Positions 50,413-57,000 of a stretch of DNA of 64,000 bases are shown here, in pieces. The first letter of the stretch is position 1; each line of letters opens with the position of its first letter. This stretch comes from Camelus dromedarius (taxonomy: Eukaryota), in the NCBI RefSeq assembly GCF_036321535.1, contig NC_087436.1:42906001-42970000 (forward strand), read 5' to 3'. A program made the position numbers and the translations under genes. The notes under the pieces were generated by a model. The model ran no database searches, was not told the origin of the DNA, and saw only the letters and a list, made by a program, of their open reading frames with translations.

Positions 50413-52961
50413 GCTAATCAGAGACCATAAAAATGAACAGACTCCAAAAGTCCCAGTGGTCTCCTTAAAGCCTTATGAGCTGTTTAACTCTGGAAATTTG
50501 ACTAACGCCCTTGGAACTCTCACTTGAAAAATATTTATTCAGGTATTTCAGAGGGTTCAAGAGGGTTTTCCAATCTTGTTAATTGGCAAAATCTTTGCAG
50601 AAGTGACTAACATTTTGTCTAATTTGAAACTTCGTAGGCTACACAAAGGCAGTGCTTTTGGAGTGAAGTAACATTAATCTGCTTGCTTAAATACTGCTTA
50701 GACTGTGTGGTATTAATTTTTGTTGGCATTTCTTATGTGTATATTCTGTAGTTGTATTTTGAAAAATCTAGCCGTGAGTGATTGGCTCATTATTAACAGT
50801 GTAAATGAGATGGTCTGTAAATTCAGTTACTGACGGCCGTACGTGCCTGTTCTCCAGTGCTGTCAGAGCTTCCAAAAGCTCCTGATCCCCCTATAGCCTG
50901 GCCCTCAGGAGACTGGCAGCTGACAGAAGGTTCCCATCCCTCCAGAGTAGCACATGCATACACAGGCTCACTTCTAAATTTCTAATTAGTCTTCTTGTTT
51001 TAGTGCTATTGTTTACTGTATTTTGTGAATCTTATCTGAACATGACTAATCTTTTAATGGAATTTTTACTGCCAAAGTCAAGTAGAAATTCCATATTGCT
51101 TATCCTATGATGAGTGAATCATCACTTGTTCAGTTTATGGCCCAATCTTCACATCAGGCCTCTGAAAAGGGGCTTCAAAACAGCCTTGGAAGTAGTTATT
51201 TGCCCACTTGCCAAAGGAGTAATCTCTAATCAAGGTAATAAAGAGGTTAGGGAATTTCATTTATTTTGCTTTTCAAAGTTATGTTTAAACAAGTTGCTGT
51301 TGTGTTTGAAAATATTGGTTGAAATTAAAATAGAGACCATGTTCATTATTGAACAGCCCTACAGATCACAGGATAGGCCCTGTGGGTTGAATCATTTCAT
51401 ATGCATGCTTATAGCAAGTTTTGGAATTTACAATAGGATACATTTTAGGGTAGATCCCACCCATAATTAAGGAGAGGAAACATTCTCTTCCCAACTACAA
51501 GCATGAAATAATTTGTAAAAGACTATTTAGTGCTAGTCTTTAAGAAGTTAAGAATTGAGTCTGTTCTCACTAGGAACAAATGGTGAAGTTTATTTAATCT
51601 GAATTATTTACTTCTTTATTTTCTGTTATTCATTAGGCCAAATAACTTATGGGTTTCAAGCCATAATAAGCTGTGGTTTGATATGAGAGAGTGAAATATT
51701 CCTAAATAAAAGTGAACATTATTATAGAAGGGAAAAGAGTCATATGATTTAACAAATAATTACCAACACTCCAAAAAACTGTATAGTTAAAAATAATCAA
51801 CGTGAGGCTCTTTCAGTGGTGAGAGTTAGGAGTAAGAGCTAGAAAATCACAATTGTGATCAGTTTTGACATGTACATTGTAAAAGATTAGACGGTGATCA
51901 CTTTTTTTATTTCAAGAATTTACTTTGGAGTAATACTATTTTGTACGTTAAATGATTGAAAATGGCCTCATTAAAATATTTGCTTAACCCTTAAATGGAT
52001 ATAGCTCTGTATATACCAGCATTTGAGCCTTGTACAGAATTCTTCAGTGTGATCTGTTCTATGCTACTGTGCGTCAGATGACAGCTCCTGGAACCTTATA
52101 GGTGCCCATCAGTGATTTCTCCCCTCTGATTAGCAGTCTGTTGGACATCAATGAGCCTTCACTAACAATAACATAAATTCTACATTTTAACATAGTAATA
52201 AGCAAAAGTTTTCCTTCAGTAAGGTGTATGGAAATGTGTTTAACATTCACCAGTGCTCCAGGGGGTTTTAAATTTTATTTGTTTTTGTAAGTTCTTAGTC
52301 TTTTCCCAGAGTATCCCTGTACTGAAGAAGGGTTTGTTTTGTGCCATGGGGTTTACTTTAAATTCTCCCTCTGTTGTTGGAGACTTGCACTAGTTTTCCT
52401 ATTATATCACACAAGAAGCACCATTCCTAAGTCAAAATGGTAAATGTCTCCCTCCGTTTTTTGTTTTTTTTTTTTTTTTTGATCCTTGTTTCACCTGCCA
52501 CTTCATCTGTGTTTACCCTCTTGTTTCAACACCTATGTTTAATTGTGACCTCAGATTTTAAACAGTTTAGATGTGTATGAGAAATGCCCATAAATTTTGT
52601 GTAGCTGAAGAATTTTCCCCAAACATTGTGGGAATTATTTACAAAATTTTCTCCCTGAATATGGAAATTTTGGCTTCCATATACAAATGATTTAATTTGT
52701 AGAGTTGTAATGAAAAAAAAACACAGCTCAAATTGTTTTGTCTGAACATGTCACAAATTCTATGTTGGATGTCATTTTTGTTAGAACCAGAATTAGCTTT
52801 ATTCAGCATTATTTAATTCCAATGTAAAGCTAAAAAAAGTGAGAAAATATAATTTTTGTTTGTTTGTTTGTTTTGTTCAAACTTTCATTTTATTTTGTAT
52901 TAAATGTGATTATGTGCCTTTAAAATGTTCTCCCTTCCATTCTGCCCTTGTATCTTTACAG

Positions 52962-53034
52962 TCATTGTATACAGCAGATTCTAGAAAGTGTAAATCATTG
53001 TCACCTAAATGGCATAGTTCACAGGGACCTGAAG
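52962..53034 (+). CDS. CAMK2D: CaMKII delta mutually exclusive exon 6, first copy (73 bp)
   Basis: Pyrimidine tract then tttacAG; donor GTCAGT. Translates (S)[24 protein letters not shown], which matches canonical CaMKII delta as I recall it. In frame with the upstream exon. Confidence 0.96.
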
Positions 53035-53180
53035 GTCAGTATATGGAGTCCATAAATCTAAATCAAAGGAGGTTTTTTGTTTTTTGGGTTTTCTGGGGAA
53101 AGGGCAGAGGGTGGGTGTTTAAAACGGTTCCCTTGCCTTTCCCAACTTCTCCCTAAAATGACTAAATGATGAAATGATAC

Positions 53181-53186
53181 TGCATG
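53181..53186 (+). promoter_or_regulatory. RBFOX-type TGCATG motif downstream of first exon-6 copy
   Basis: Exact TGCATG about 147 nt after the 53034 donor. Function is inferred. Confidence 0.5.
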
Positions 53187-53970: not shown

Positions 53971-53976
53971 TGCATG
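53971..53976 (+). promoter_or_regulatory. RBFOX-type TGCATG motif inside the 3' splice site of second exon-6 copy
   Basis: tttTGCATGcag directly precedes the acceptor CAG. Function is inferred. Confidence 0.55.
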
Positions 53977-53979
53977 CAG

Positions 53980-54052
53980 TCATTGCATTCAGCAGATCCT
54001 GGAGGCTGTGCTACACTGCCATCAGATGGGCGTAGTCCATCGGGACCTGAAG
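53980..54052 (+). CDS. CAMK2D: CaMKII delta mutually exclusive exon 6, second copy (73 bp, alpha/beta-like sequence)
   Basis: Branch-point-like ACTAAC at 53948-53953, acceptor tgcatgcAG, consensus donor GTGAGT. Translates (S)[24 protein letters not shown]. Same length and phase as 52962-53034. Confidence 0.94.
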
Positions 54053-57000
54053 GTGAGTAATGCCCTTGGAGCAGACAAACCACCACACAATTCCTAATGA
54101 CTGTTCAGCTGTAGTTATGCCTGTAAAGGCAAAAGGATGAGCAATAAAGTCGTGTGGACTCATTCTGACACATTACGAAAACCCTTTCCCTCTCCACTCT
54201 CTTATTTCATCTCTTCTCTAATGCACACTTGAGAGTCGTATAAATCCTACTGTATCCAGAGAGAAACAATTTCCTAACATGACCAATAAATAGGTTATAT
54301 TTCCTTCCTCCCAAGAATGGATATAGCATTCAGTGTGACTTTGAGGAGGACCGGAGATCTCTTCTTCATTCTCAACTTGTTCTGTGGATATAATGATGTT
54401 TGTTGATCAAATGTGTTATTTTATAGTCATACTATATACTAATATTATGTAAAAGGTTATCAAAATTAAAAGTAAATAGAAATTTCTTAAGTAGATTTTG
54501 GTTCAAGTGACTGGTTGCTACAGAACCCCAGGTTGAATGCTGAAGCCTCTTTCCCTTCATTCCAGTCCTGGGAATTCTGAGGACACTGAGGCTTCTTGGT
54601 TTTTTATTTATTTATATACCTAGGGGCCAAGAGGATGCGCTTAACCTCTACTATCCCCTAGATACTATTGCCTTTTAAAACAGGTGGAAAAAAAGTGAAA
54701 CAAATTTTATTATCAAATAATATATATCTAACATATATACATACTAAGACTTTCTAAAACTTGACTCAGCTTCTAATACCACTGAGGATGAGAATTGTTC
54801 AGATCATTTAGAAATTAAATAGTTCAGAAAAGAAGACTATTCTTTATTAATATTCTGACCCTCTTCTCTCAGCATTCTACTTTTACTTATGAAATTTCAG
54901 AGAAATAGTGACGGTCTAGAAATTTAAGTGGAAGAAAGCTAACTGGGTGGGCGAAATAGCAGATGTGAGCAGCACTATATAGTTGTGATTCTTTGTATGA
55001 AACCCCGGCCTTTTCCAGGCTTTAGTACAATGGTGGCAGATAATTTAGAGCGTGTTGAACTGTAGTGTGTGCAGTGTGAGGCCCTAGGCTGGTTTCTCCT
55101 GGACAGACTTCTCTAGTTATAGTAAATTGCCAATCTATATTTTCTTTTCATTTAGTATGTTCTAGAAGAATATGTCTCTAAAGATCCATGGTGAATTACT
55201 TGAAGATGTGATTTACTAGCAAAACATTGCCTTAGTTTTCTGGAATCTTCCTTTGGTTTCAGTTTGAGTTTGGGAGCCCTAAATGTCTAGAGGACGGGAA
55301 GGTTAATGGCTTGTTCTTTTGGAAAACTTAGACAGGACTGTGTCCGTCTGCTACCACTTACCAAATTCTCCCATCAGGATAAAGGGAAAACAATATATTC
55401 CTTTGAAATTCCATGTCTTTGGCAATCAACTTCAAAATTCCTTTCTAGCCAAGGGAAGACCGTGCCCATTTTGTTACTTCTTAGAACTCACAGTGGTACT
55501 TTCCTTTGTAATGTGCACATACACGTTATTGGTGCTGTTAATCAGAGACTCTAATAAATTTGTCATTTGAAACATTTCACTCCATTTATGTAATTGTAAG
55601 TATACTGTAACGGCCAAGGATGAAAAATGTGAATTCTGTCCCATGACTTTTAAAAGATATTTTCTGAGGTCATGATATTACACTTCTGTAAGTGTCCAAA
55701 TTCAGCTGAGCCCTTCAAAGGCAGGAACTTGAATCAGAGATGGGAGTGGGCCTAGGATGTGGGCTGGGAAGAAAAACATATTTTCTGGCATATGAGCAAA
55801 AGTCATTAATTAAAAACTCAGGCAGGTGATTTCTGGAGAGGCTCACGACCAAGAGAAATAGCCTACTGTGTCCCCTGTCAGATTTCTTACAGGGGAGATA
55901 AATGTTTTTCTTTCCACTCTTACTCTGATTTTAGGAGAGGACAGAGATGAACTTCTTGATAGAACTCGTTACAGTTTCTGTCATTGTGTCTTGGTTTCTG
56001 TCACACTGCTGACTTAGATAAACTTGGGTTGAGTCTAGTTCTTGTGCTTGTTTCAACAGGCTGTGCTGTCAGCGTGCTAGGAGAGGCCCGCGCCTGTGCC
56101 TGAAAGGCAGCCTGTGCACACCTTGAGTGTGCTCTGGCACCGGCTCTGTTTCGTGTCTTTTCTACCCACCACGTATAGTCTGATAAGGATATGACTTGTC
56201 ATAGCATATTTACCAACATAGTAAAATGGAAAAGATCAACTGCTGAAACTTACTACCAGGCTTTTAACAAAAGGTTGCCCTTACTATTATCAGGCCATAC
56301 ATTTTTGTTTCCATATCATGAGTTGTATGTTAATTCACGTGCAGTAAAGAGGCACGGTGTAATTTGTCCATATCACTGAAATAAAAACATAGGAAGTATT
56401 ACATTTATCATCATTGTCACAGGCACCCATGAGCATGTGAGTGCTGTACAGTTTGTTTAAAAACCCCTCCTAGAACAGTAGCTGTTTAACGTTGTGCCCC
56501 TCTGCAGTACTCAACGTGGGGCCTTCTACCTGGTAAATACTGCAGCTTAGTCCTTCGTTTGAGGAATGAATGCGGTTCAACCAAAAGCACATTTATAATG
56601 TAAAAGGCAACATGGAGTAAAATAGATCGTTGTGTATGTTAATTAATATTGGATAAAATAAAGAGGATAAGCATATCCTCTTTGATACAGTGATATTGTA
56701 AAGATCTCCATTTGAGTATTTGAGTAACTGCCACTCTTGGGGGCTTATCAAACAGTAGAATTTACTGGACAGAAAATTATCAGGATCTACAGACCAGGCT
56801 AAGGCATAGCGGGCACTTTGAGGATGCCCCAGAAATGACAATGGGAGGAGGTTCAGAGTGGTGGGATGTTGGTGTGATGGAAGCACACCAGTCAGTATCA
56901 GCACCATCTGCTGGGTCCATGGACCATAGCCTTTGGTCTCAGGTGCAAAGTGTCAGGCCTGTGGATGTTGATTCAAGCAGTATTAGGAAGATTAAGCAGT

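What the first reader, a model, noticed from the sequence alone, without database searches (positions are those of the whole stretch)
52936..54068. Candidate competing RNA-pairing (docker/selector) switch for the exon pair
Seen in sequence: a purine element between the exons (GGGAAAGGGCAGAGGGTGGG, 53096-53115) has three alternative partners. (1) The polypyrimidine tract of the first exon: TCTGCCCTT 52941-52949 pairs perfectly with AAGGGCAGA 53100-53108, extendable to about 14 bp with G-U pairs and a 2-nt bulge; this would mask the tract and loop out exon 6a. (2) A local hairpin arm CCCTTGCCTTTCCC 53130-53143 (14 bp, two 1-nt bulges), which would free the tract. (3) TGCCCTT at 54061-54067, just after the second exon's donor, which would loop out exon 6b; the 8-mer TGCCCTTG occurs at both 52943 and 54061. 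Established knowledge: competing pairings enforce exclusivity in Dscam-type clusters, and a 945-nt intron is too long for steric exclusion unless the branch point is distal. Inference: this could be an undescribed structural switch. Caveat: the helices are short, found post hoc, and TGCCCTT occurs several times elsewhere in the window.
Basis: partly seen in the sequence, partly recalled or inferred. Interest (0 to 1): 0.7.

Follow-up and report, generated by a model that had tools for sequence, protein, structure and literature searches.

The report
Conserved G-rich hairpin beside CAMK2D exons
Next to an already known either-or exon pair of the kinase gene CAMK2D lies a small conserved G-rich stretch with a matching partner that probably folds locally and tunes splicing, but the proposed three-way RNA switch that would force the either-or choice is not supported.

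Summary
The exons are CAMK2D 6A/6B, a published mutually exclusive pair. In one orthologue (L018; intron 68% identical) the purine element is 19/20 and the arm 12/14 identical, so something there is under selection. The local hairpin dominates folding (about 15 expected pairs against about 1e-6 for helices 1 and 3). Helix 1 wins only before the arm is transcribed and is modestly above chance (9/300 locally, 46/500 over the intron). Helix 3 is chance-level and not conserved as a 7-mer. A better downstream partner lies at 54182 (35/2000) but is not convincingly conserved. Both exons are 73 nt, so double inclusion or double skipping gives an early stop. The 6B acceptor has a proximal ACTAAC and a TGCATG, both deeply conserved. 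Most likely: protein control plus decay enforces exclusivity, and the G-run/hairpin tunes 6A. The scan had no look-alike.

The parts
49791..49856 (+). CAMK2D exon 5 (66 nt), upstream constitutive exon
   Evidence: peptide [22 protein letters not shown] as listed for CAMK2D
52887..52961 (+). Exon 6A acceptor region, strongly conserved
   Evidence: 73 of 75 identical in orthologue L018
52937..52949 (+). Segment 1: part of the 6A polypyrimidine tract that can pair with the purine element (helix 1, 13 bp)
   Evidence: all 13 pairs invariant in L018, so no covariation information
52962..53034 (+). Exon 6A (6v1), 73 nt, [24 protein letters not shown]; weakest U1 pairing of the four donors tested
   Evidence: -8.4 kcal/mol against -10.8 to -13.2
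53096..53115 (+). Purine element: four G-triplets with 3-, 4- and 1-nt loops, a canonical three-tier G-quadruplex motif 62-81 nt after the 6A donor
   Evidence: 19 of 20 identical in L018, all four triplets kept; one of two such sites on the + strand of the 64-kb window
53127..53143 (+). C/U-rich arm; forms the dominant local hairpin with the purine element
   Evidence: 53127-53138 12 of 12 and 53130-53143 12 of 14 identical in L018
53181..53196 (+). Conserved block starting with TGCATG (RBFOX motif; the motif assignment is recalled) downstream of 6A
   Evidence: 16 of 16 identical in L018
53948..53953 (+). ACTAAC, proximal branch-point motif of 6B (branch A 28 nt before the exon); also the QKI core motif
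   Evidence: at -31 to -34 in 4 of 4 6B-type loci; no half-site within 20 nt
53971..53976 (+). TGCATG overlapping the 6B acceptor (-9 to -4)
   Evidence: same position in 4 of 4 6B-type loci, absent from the two paralogue acceptors L004 and L005
53980..54052 (+). Exon 6B (6v2), 73 nt, [24 protein letters not shown], peptide identical to exon 6 of two paralogues
54061..54067 (+).
54182..54190 (+). Alternative downstream partner found here: 9-bp perfect complement of 53096-53104, extendable to 15 bp, 130 nt after the 6B donor; conservation unproven
63436..63538 (+). CAMK2D exon 7 (103 nt), downstream constitutive exon; holds the early stops of both non-exclusive products

Best explanation
This is the known CAMK2D exon 6A/6B pair. 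Exclusivity most likely comes from three ordinary layers. (1) 6B is silent by default: its acceptor has a short pyrimidine tract overlapped by a deeply conserved TGCATG and preceded by ACTAAC, sites through which RBFOX and QKI proteins repress exons (motifs shown; binding inferred). (2) 6A is the default: strong tract, weak donor, helped by downstream G-runs and a downstream TGCATG (motifs shown; function inferred). (3) Transcripts with both or neither exon shift frame and stop early in exon 7, so they should be degraded (stop shown; decay inferred). The purine element and its arm form a conserved local module: G-runs or a G-quadruplex (hnRNP F/H-type enhancer of the weak 6A donor) that the arm can close into a hairpin. 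It tunes how well 6A is recognised; it is not a docking site choosing between selectors.
For: Known pair, 6A exclusive in ventricle and soleus, 6B about 10% in olfactory bulb (PMC12060085 passages). Both non-exclusive products stop in exon 7. 377 of 629 human clusters have such frame-shifting exons (PMC5740500 passage). Hairpin holds about 15 expected pairs against about 1e-6 for helices 1 and 3. Element 19/20 and arm 12/14 conserved against 358/526 background; only 2 of 504 16-mers and 12 of 508 12-mers of that intron stretch are fully conserved. All four G-triplets kept; five G-runs follow the 6A donor, against 0-1 after the three other donors. G4 motifs are enriched after weak donors on the RNA strand (PMC9065059 passages). 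ACTAAC and TGCATG at fixed positions in 4 of 4 6B-type loci. QKI represses through ACUAA branch sites (PMC13004596 passages).
Against: Only one orthologue covers the module, so conservation rests on two sequences; the pair-count control is uninformative (263 of 500 shuffles). No binding, knockdown or decay data for exon 6 were found. Strong QKI repression needed two sites in the tested case and 6B has one; the paralogue L004 also has ACTAAT at its single exon 6, so it may be just a good branch point. RBFOX proteins are abundant in neurons (recalled), where 6B appears, which a simple repression model does not explain. Four invariant bases of the element that are unpaired in the shared hairpin register are paired in helix 1, which slightly favours helix 1. 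Hatje et al. found joining reads for only 83 of 377 frame-shifting clusters and concluded that most are regulated by other means. The human Gini table labels the brain-restricted member with the id of the 6A peptide, at odds with the mouse data; unresolved.
Confidence: 0.55

Rival explanations
1. Helix 1 is a real, transient repressor of 6A. The purine element pairs back onto the 6A tract as it leaves the polymerase; the arm, made 15-30 nt later, releases it. If a protein holds the arm, or transcription pauses, helix 1 persists, 6A is skipped and 6B is used. No downstream selector is needed.
For: Transcripts cut before the arm fold into helix 1 with 14.3 (window) and 16.3 (L018) expected pairs. 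The invariant block begins exactly where helix 1 begins and the one change in the element lies just outside it. 6A has the best tract-to-downstream pairing of 13 acceptors tested (9/300 and 7/300, not independent).
Against: With the arm present helix 1 costs 10.8 (window) and 7.5 (L018) kcal/mol in the 320-nt fold and 12.4 in the 1.38-kb fold. With quadruplex folding allowed, the truncated L018 RNA prefers the quadruplex. Over the whole intron 46 of 500 shuffles pair as well; 407 of 2000 shuffled tracts do. All 13 pairs are invariant and the tract lies in a 75-nt block conserved for other possible reasons. Not seen in the distant 6A-type locus L026 (248 of 300).
Confidence: 0.2
2. Full competing-pairing switch: the element pairs either upstream with the 6A tract (6A looped out) or downstream of 6B (6B looped out). 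The downstream partner would be 54182-54190 rather than the reader's segment 3.
For: 54182-54190 is a 9-bp perfect complement (35 of 2000 shuffles; 7 of 319 real 200-nt tiles), extends to -22.2 kcal/mol, and forcing it costs only 1.2 kcal/mol in the 1.38-kb fold. The orthologue L032 has a 7-bp complement at +110 in a similar-looking context. This layout would give true exclusivity (inference).
Against: Found post hoc. The L032 site is no better than chance (492 of 2000; -15.2) and its homology to the window site is not significant (103 of 1000). By energy the window's best downstream duplex is matched by 86 of 500 shuffles. Expected pairs 0.05 against 14.9 for the hairpin. A G-rich 24-mer finds many partners: 70 of 4922 tiles reach -21.7. 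Segment 3 itself: 49 of 1279 tiles, 8.3 kcal/mol cost, not conserved as a 7-mer.
Confidence: 0.12
3. The conserved blocks are only linear protein-binding sites (G-runs; a C/U-rich site), and all pairings, the hairpin included, are by-products of a G-rich stretch in pyrimidine-rich surroundings.
For: Shuffled arms pair as well in 303 of 2000 cases. The orthologous hairpin is weak (17 of 200); the 100-nt extended hairpin is not significant in either species (64 and 22 of 200). One terminal pair is broken by changes on both sides.
Against: Window hairpin z -2.3 to -2.5; both arms conserved while the 11-nt loop is 6/11; one two-sided change keeps a pair.
Confidence: 0.13

Closest known systems
CAMK2D / Camk2d exons 6A and 6B (6v1, 6v2); PMC12060085 and bioRxiv 10.1101/721589 (passages read); cluster 2205 in PMC5740500 (supplement rows)
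   Same: Same gene, same two 73-nt exons and peptides, described as mutually exclusive.
   Different: The passages I saw give no cis-element or mechanism for the choice.
ATE1 exons 7a/7b competing pairings R1-R3 and R3-R4 (PMC7797038; abstract and two results sections read)
   Different: In ATE1 both competitors are homologous acceptor regions conserved across vertebrates and proven by compensatory mutants. Here the 6B acceptor pairs weakly (-14.0 against -23.7) and the element has a local partner that outcompetes both.
Dscam-type docking site and selectors, and the bidirectional model (PMC6071210; passages read)
   Same: One element with several alternative complements; segments 1 and 3 share an 8-mer.
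   Different: The docker lies in a flanking intron and selectors are duplicated copies, one per exon. Here the hub is internal, one partner is before an exon and one after, and segment 3 is not conserved.
Intronic G-quadruplex / G-run enhancers bound by hnRNP F/H (PMC5769772, abstract only; PMC9065059, passages)
   Same: Canonical G3N1-7 motif on the RNA strand within 100 nt of a weak donor of an alternative exon.
   Different: Here a conserved complementary arm follows 12 nt later and is predicted to beat the quadruplex (-22.6 against -14.8); folding and binding are untested. Such motifs are common (8.8% of human donors).

Membership tests
Mutually exclusive exon pair (tandem duplicate) | Adjacent homologous exons of equal length and phase | tested here: met
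   73 nt each, 51 of 73 identical, same frame
Mutually exclusive exon pair (tandem duplicate) | One and only one is found in transcripts | not tested
   No reads were examined in this species; reported for mouse and human
Docker/selector or ATE1-type competing pairing | One hub with a complementary partner for each exon, mutually incompatible | tested here: inconclusive
   6A partner present; segment 3 chance-level; 54182 site present but post hoc
Docker/selector or ATE1-type competing pairing | Hub and all partners conserved | tested here: not met
   Hub and 6A tract conserved in L018; segment 3 absent as a 7-mer at its position in 4 of 4 6B-type loci; 54182 site homology not significant
Docker/selector or ATE1-type competing pairing | Competing helices of comparable stability that actually form | tested here: not met
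   Local hairpin about 15 expected pairs; helix 1 and segment 3 about 1e-6; 54182 site 0.05; equilibrium model only
Docker/selector or ATE1-type competing pairing | Compensatory substitutions in the exon-looping helices | tested here: inconclusive
   Helix 1: 13 of 13 pairs invariant in two sequences
Docker/selector or ATE1-type competing pairing | Rescue by compensatory mutation in a minigene | not testable with these tools
   needs experiment
Steric exclusion by a distal branch point | Branch point of the second exon within about 50 nt of the first donor | tested here: not met
   ACTAAC 28 nt before 6B, last upstream AG at 53934, conserved position in 4 of 4 loci; by sequence only
Frameshift/NMD-backed exclusivity | Both-in and both-out products carry premature stops upstream of further junctions | tested here: met
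   Both stop early in exon 7; downstream exons known
Frameshift/NMD-backed exclusivity | Such products appear when decay is blocked | not testable with these tools
   needs UPF1/SMG1-inhibited RNA-seq
Intronic G-quadruplex/G-run enhancer | Canonical four-G-triplet motif on the RNA strand within 100 nt of a weak donor, triplets conserved | tested here: met
Intronic G-quadruplex/G-run enhancer | Folds as a quadruplex or binds hnRNP F/H, and promotes inclusion | not testable with these tools
   Model predicts the hairpin wins once the arm is present

The most novel reading that the evidence does not exclude
The purine element is the hub of a timed, multi-state RNA switch in a vertebrate kinase gene: on emerging it first pairs back onto the 6A tract, then is taken by a quadruplex or the local arm, and later may pair 130 nt past exon 6B. 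Potassium, polymerase speed or arm-binding proteins would set the state, and so decide whether neurons make a CaMKII-delta whose exon-6 segment is of the alpha/beta type.
Probability: 0.15. Interest if true: 0.65.

Novelty: new member of a known kind. Interest (0 to 1): 0.35.

Why it matters
How CAMK2D picks 6A or 6B appears unexplained: the 2025 mouse paper leaves even its physiological meaning open, and ten literature searches listed no paper whose title or abstract start addresses the cis-elements. The analysis gives a short list of conserved, mutable elements for one minigene. Validated competing-pairing switches in vertebrate exon pairs are few (ATE1 is the worked example I read), so a further one coupled to a quadruplex would interest splicing specialists. 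On present evidence it is more likely an ordinary enhancer module beside a known exon pair.

Tried and rejected
1. Segment 3 as selector: rejected. For fairness: L032 keeps the first four letters at the same position, its C-rich flank pairs at -15.5 in another register, and L025 has a 6-nt look-alike about 27 nt after its donor. 2. ATE1 layout with the 6B acceptor as second partner: weak, -14.0. 3. Distal branch point: not found by sequence. 4. Larger 100-nt hairpin: not significant. 5. Rfam: one hit at E 0.45, 21.8 bits against a threshold of 80; dismissed. 6. More orthologues: 33 metagenome loci returned; 26 dropped as invertebrate-, plant-like, truncated or otherwise without intronic similarity; 7 kept (L018, L032, L025, L026, L028, L039, L036). 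Genome and viral collections gave 0. The records behind the loci could not be extended. 7. No read-level evidence was obtained, so exon usage, double inclusion and a third species remain untested; the run list was not used as evidence. 8. A 12-nt match between the TGCATG block and L025 is not significant (50 of 300). 9. No remnant 6A-type exon upstream of exon 6 in the two 6B-type paralogues. 10. CAMK2D absent from 5 readable supplementary files of the PCCR catalogue paper, but the full table may not be among them; supplements of PMC10573301 and PMC10202634 could not be read and may bear on novelty and on the QKI idea; one paper on double-stranded-RNA binders was not held. 11. Earlier findings: nothing by place, one unrelated gene by words; not used.

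
Full report
IDENTITY. The window holds part of a vertebrate CAMK2D gene on the + strand: exon 5 (49791-49856), two 73-nt exons (52962-53034, 53980-54052) and exon 7 (63436-63538). 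The peptides match exons 6v1 and 6v2 of human CaMKII-delta (bioRxiv 10.1101/721589, passages and exon list) and the 73-nt pair in the supplement of PMC5740500. PMC12060085 (passages) names them 6A and 6B, found them mutually exclusive in mouse long reads, with 6A alone in ventricle and soleus and 6B in about 10% of olfactory-bulb transcripts. The pair is therefore known. The genome has three paralogous exons: two with the 6B peptide exactly and one of the 6A type.

OBSERVATION. All segments are as described. Duplex energies with the purine element are -25.0 (tract), -21.7 (arm) and -12.7 (segment 3) kcal/mol. In the ensemble of 52880-54120 the element forms 14.9 expected pairs with the arm and about 2e-6 with either other partner. 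Chance controls: hairpin 16 of 1000 shuffles; helix 1 46 of 500 shuffled introns, 407 of 2000 shuffled tracts, 2.5% for a 9-bp match within 200 nt; segment 3 matched by 49 of 1279 real tiles. Against its own first 200 nt, the 6A tract is matched by 9 of 300 shuffles, the best of 13 acceptors tested, two of which are 6A itself in two species.

CONSERVATION. A motif scan of metagenome contigs returned 33 loci; 26 were dropped as non-orthologous and 7 kept. L018 carries exon 6A and L032 exon 6B of another species, which I did not determine; that they are one gene is inferred. The invariant runs (16 and 12 nt, defined after seeing the alignment) are among the longest in the intron: 2 of 504 16-mers and 12 of 508 12-mers are fully conserved. 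So element and arm are under selection. In one shared register the hairpin has 13 invariant pairs, one A-U to U-A change and one broken terminal pair; with two sequences this is not significant. Helix 1 has 13 of 13 invariant pairs, which says nothing either way. Segment 3 is absent as a 7-mer at its position in L032, L025, L028 and L039 (L028 and L039 are 98% alike, so three independent loci). L025, L028, L039 and L026 look like distant vertebrates, probably fish (inference); none shows both exons on one contig. The 6A-type locus L026 has no quadruplex motif and no tract pairing, so the module is not pan-vertebrate as far as one locus can show.

(a) The element is a canonical three-tier G-quadruplex motif, one of two such sites on the + strand of the window, with all four triplets kept in L018. 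It follows the weakest of four donors. Such motifs are enriched after weak donors and occur at 8.8% of human donors (PMC9065059 passages) and can promote inclusion through hnRNP F (PMC5769772 abstract). The folding model puts the quadruplex at -14.8 and the hairpin at -22.6. (b) Both-in and both-out products stop early in exon 7. (c) The 6B acceptor has ACTAAC 28 nt upstream and TGCATG at -9 to -4, at the same places in 4 of 4 6B-type loci, and a second TGCATG starts a 16-nt invariant block downstream of 6A. Downstream activation and upstream repression by RBFOX is recalled knowledge; QKI repression at ACUAA branch sites is in PMC13004596 (passages), and the same positional rule for QKI in exon pairs is in PMC10202634 (passages). 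No data on exon 6 itself were seen.

WHAT FAVOURS A SWITCH. If the RNA is cut before the arm, helix 1 is the dominant fold in both species (14.3 and 16.3 expected pairs); once the arm is present it costs 10.8 and 7.5 kcal/mol. With quadruplexes allowed the truncated window RNA still folds helix 1 but L018 folds the quadruplex. The invariant block starts at the first base of helix 1, and four invariant bases unpaired in the hairpin are paired in helix 1. Searching further, I found a better downstream partner than segment 3 at 54182-54190: 9 perfect pairs, 35 of 2000 shuffles, 7 of 319 real tiles, only 1.2 kcal/mol above the free fold of 1.38 kb. Its counterpart in L032 is not above chance (492 of 2000) and not significantly homologous (103 of 1000), and by energy 86 of 500 shuffles do as well. 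A G-rich element finds many such partners (70 of 4922 tiles at -21.7 or better), and long-range folding energies are rough.

MECHANISM. Shown: exon identity, frameshift stops, motifs and their conservation, predicted dominance of the hairpin. Inferred: 6B is silenced by default through its acceptor motifs, 6A is favoured through downstream G-runs and TGCATG, and leftovers are removed by decay; the element and arm modulate 6A locally (0.55). Rivals: transient helix 1 repression (0.2), full competing switch with the 54182 partner (0.12), linear sites only (0.13).

COMPARISON. The nearest validated system is ATE1 7a/7b (PMC7797038, abstract and two sections), where an internal element pairs with either of two homologous, conserved acceptors. 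Here the 6B acceptor pairs weakly (-14.0) and conservation of all partners is not met, so it is not filed as a member; it may still work partly like one through helix 1. Dscam-type dockers sit in flanking introns with duplicated selectors (PMC6071210 passages), also unlike this layout.

NOVELTY AND VERDICT. Ten searches listed no paper on these cis-elements, judged from titles, abstract starts and the passages named; most subscription papers are not searched, and unread supplements or the full PCCR table may list the pairing. The conserved G-run/hairpin module seems undescribed but is of a known kind, beside a known exon pair. Interest 0.35; a real timed switch has probability about 0.15 and would deserve 0.65.

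Noticed in passing
window 53386-53407; L028 about 350 nt upstream of its 6B-type exon: A 22-nt intron stretch is 21/22 identical to a distant-vertebrate locus (0 of 300 shuffles, best of 7 comparisons), is single-copy in the genome, but is more diverged in L018. It can pair with the purine element in both species (-18.5 and -20.7); in L028 a 9-nt match to the purine element follows it closely (hairpin 35 of 500). Deep conserved element or chance; unresolved.
   Followed up: partly
window 52962-53034 and 53980-54052; L002, L004, L005; invertebrate-like loci among L008-L040: 6B has exactly the peptide of the alpha/beta paralogues and 6A resembles gamma and the invertebrate-like loci. The L004 acceptor resembles the 6B acceptor. 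The pair may predate the vertebrate gene duplications, with each paralogue keeping one copy; no remnant exon was found in the two 6B-type paralogues. No tree was built.
   Followed up: partly
L018 downstream of exon 6A; L032 around exon 6B: In this species the region between and after the exons is CpG-island-like (CpG observed/expected 0.91 and 0.73, against 0.26 in the window), a lineage-specific gain or loss that could bear on methylation or an internal promoter.
   Followed up: no
window 52941-52952 with 52966-52978: The 6A tract can also pair with the start of exon 6A itself across the acceptor (pair probabilities about 0.75); both sides are conserved in L018. No chance control was run.
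   Followed up: no
window 52887-52961: The 6A acceptor region is 73/75 identical to L018, far beyond what a pyrimidine tract needs, while the 187 nt before it are 53% identical; it probably holds further regulatory sites.
   Followed up: no
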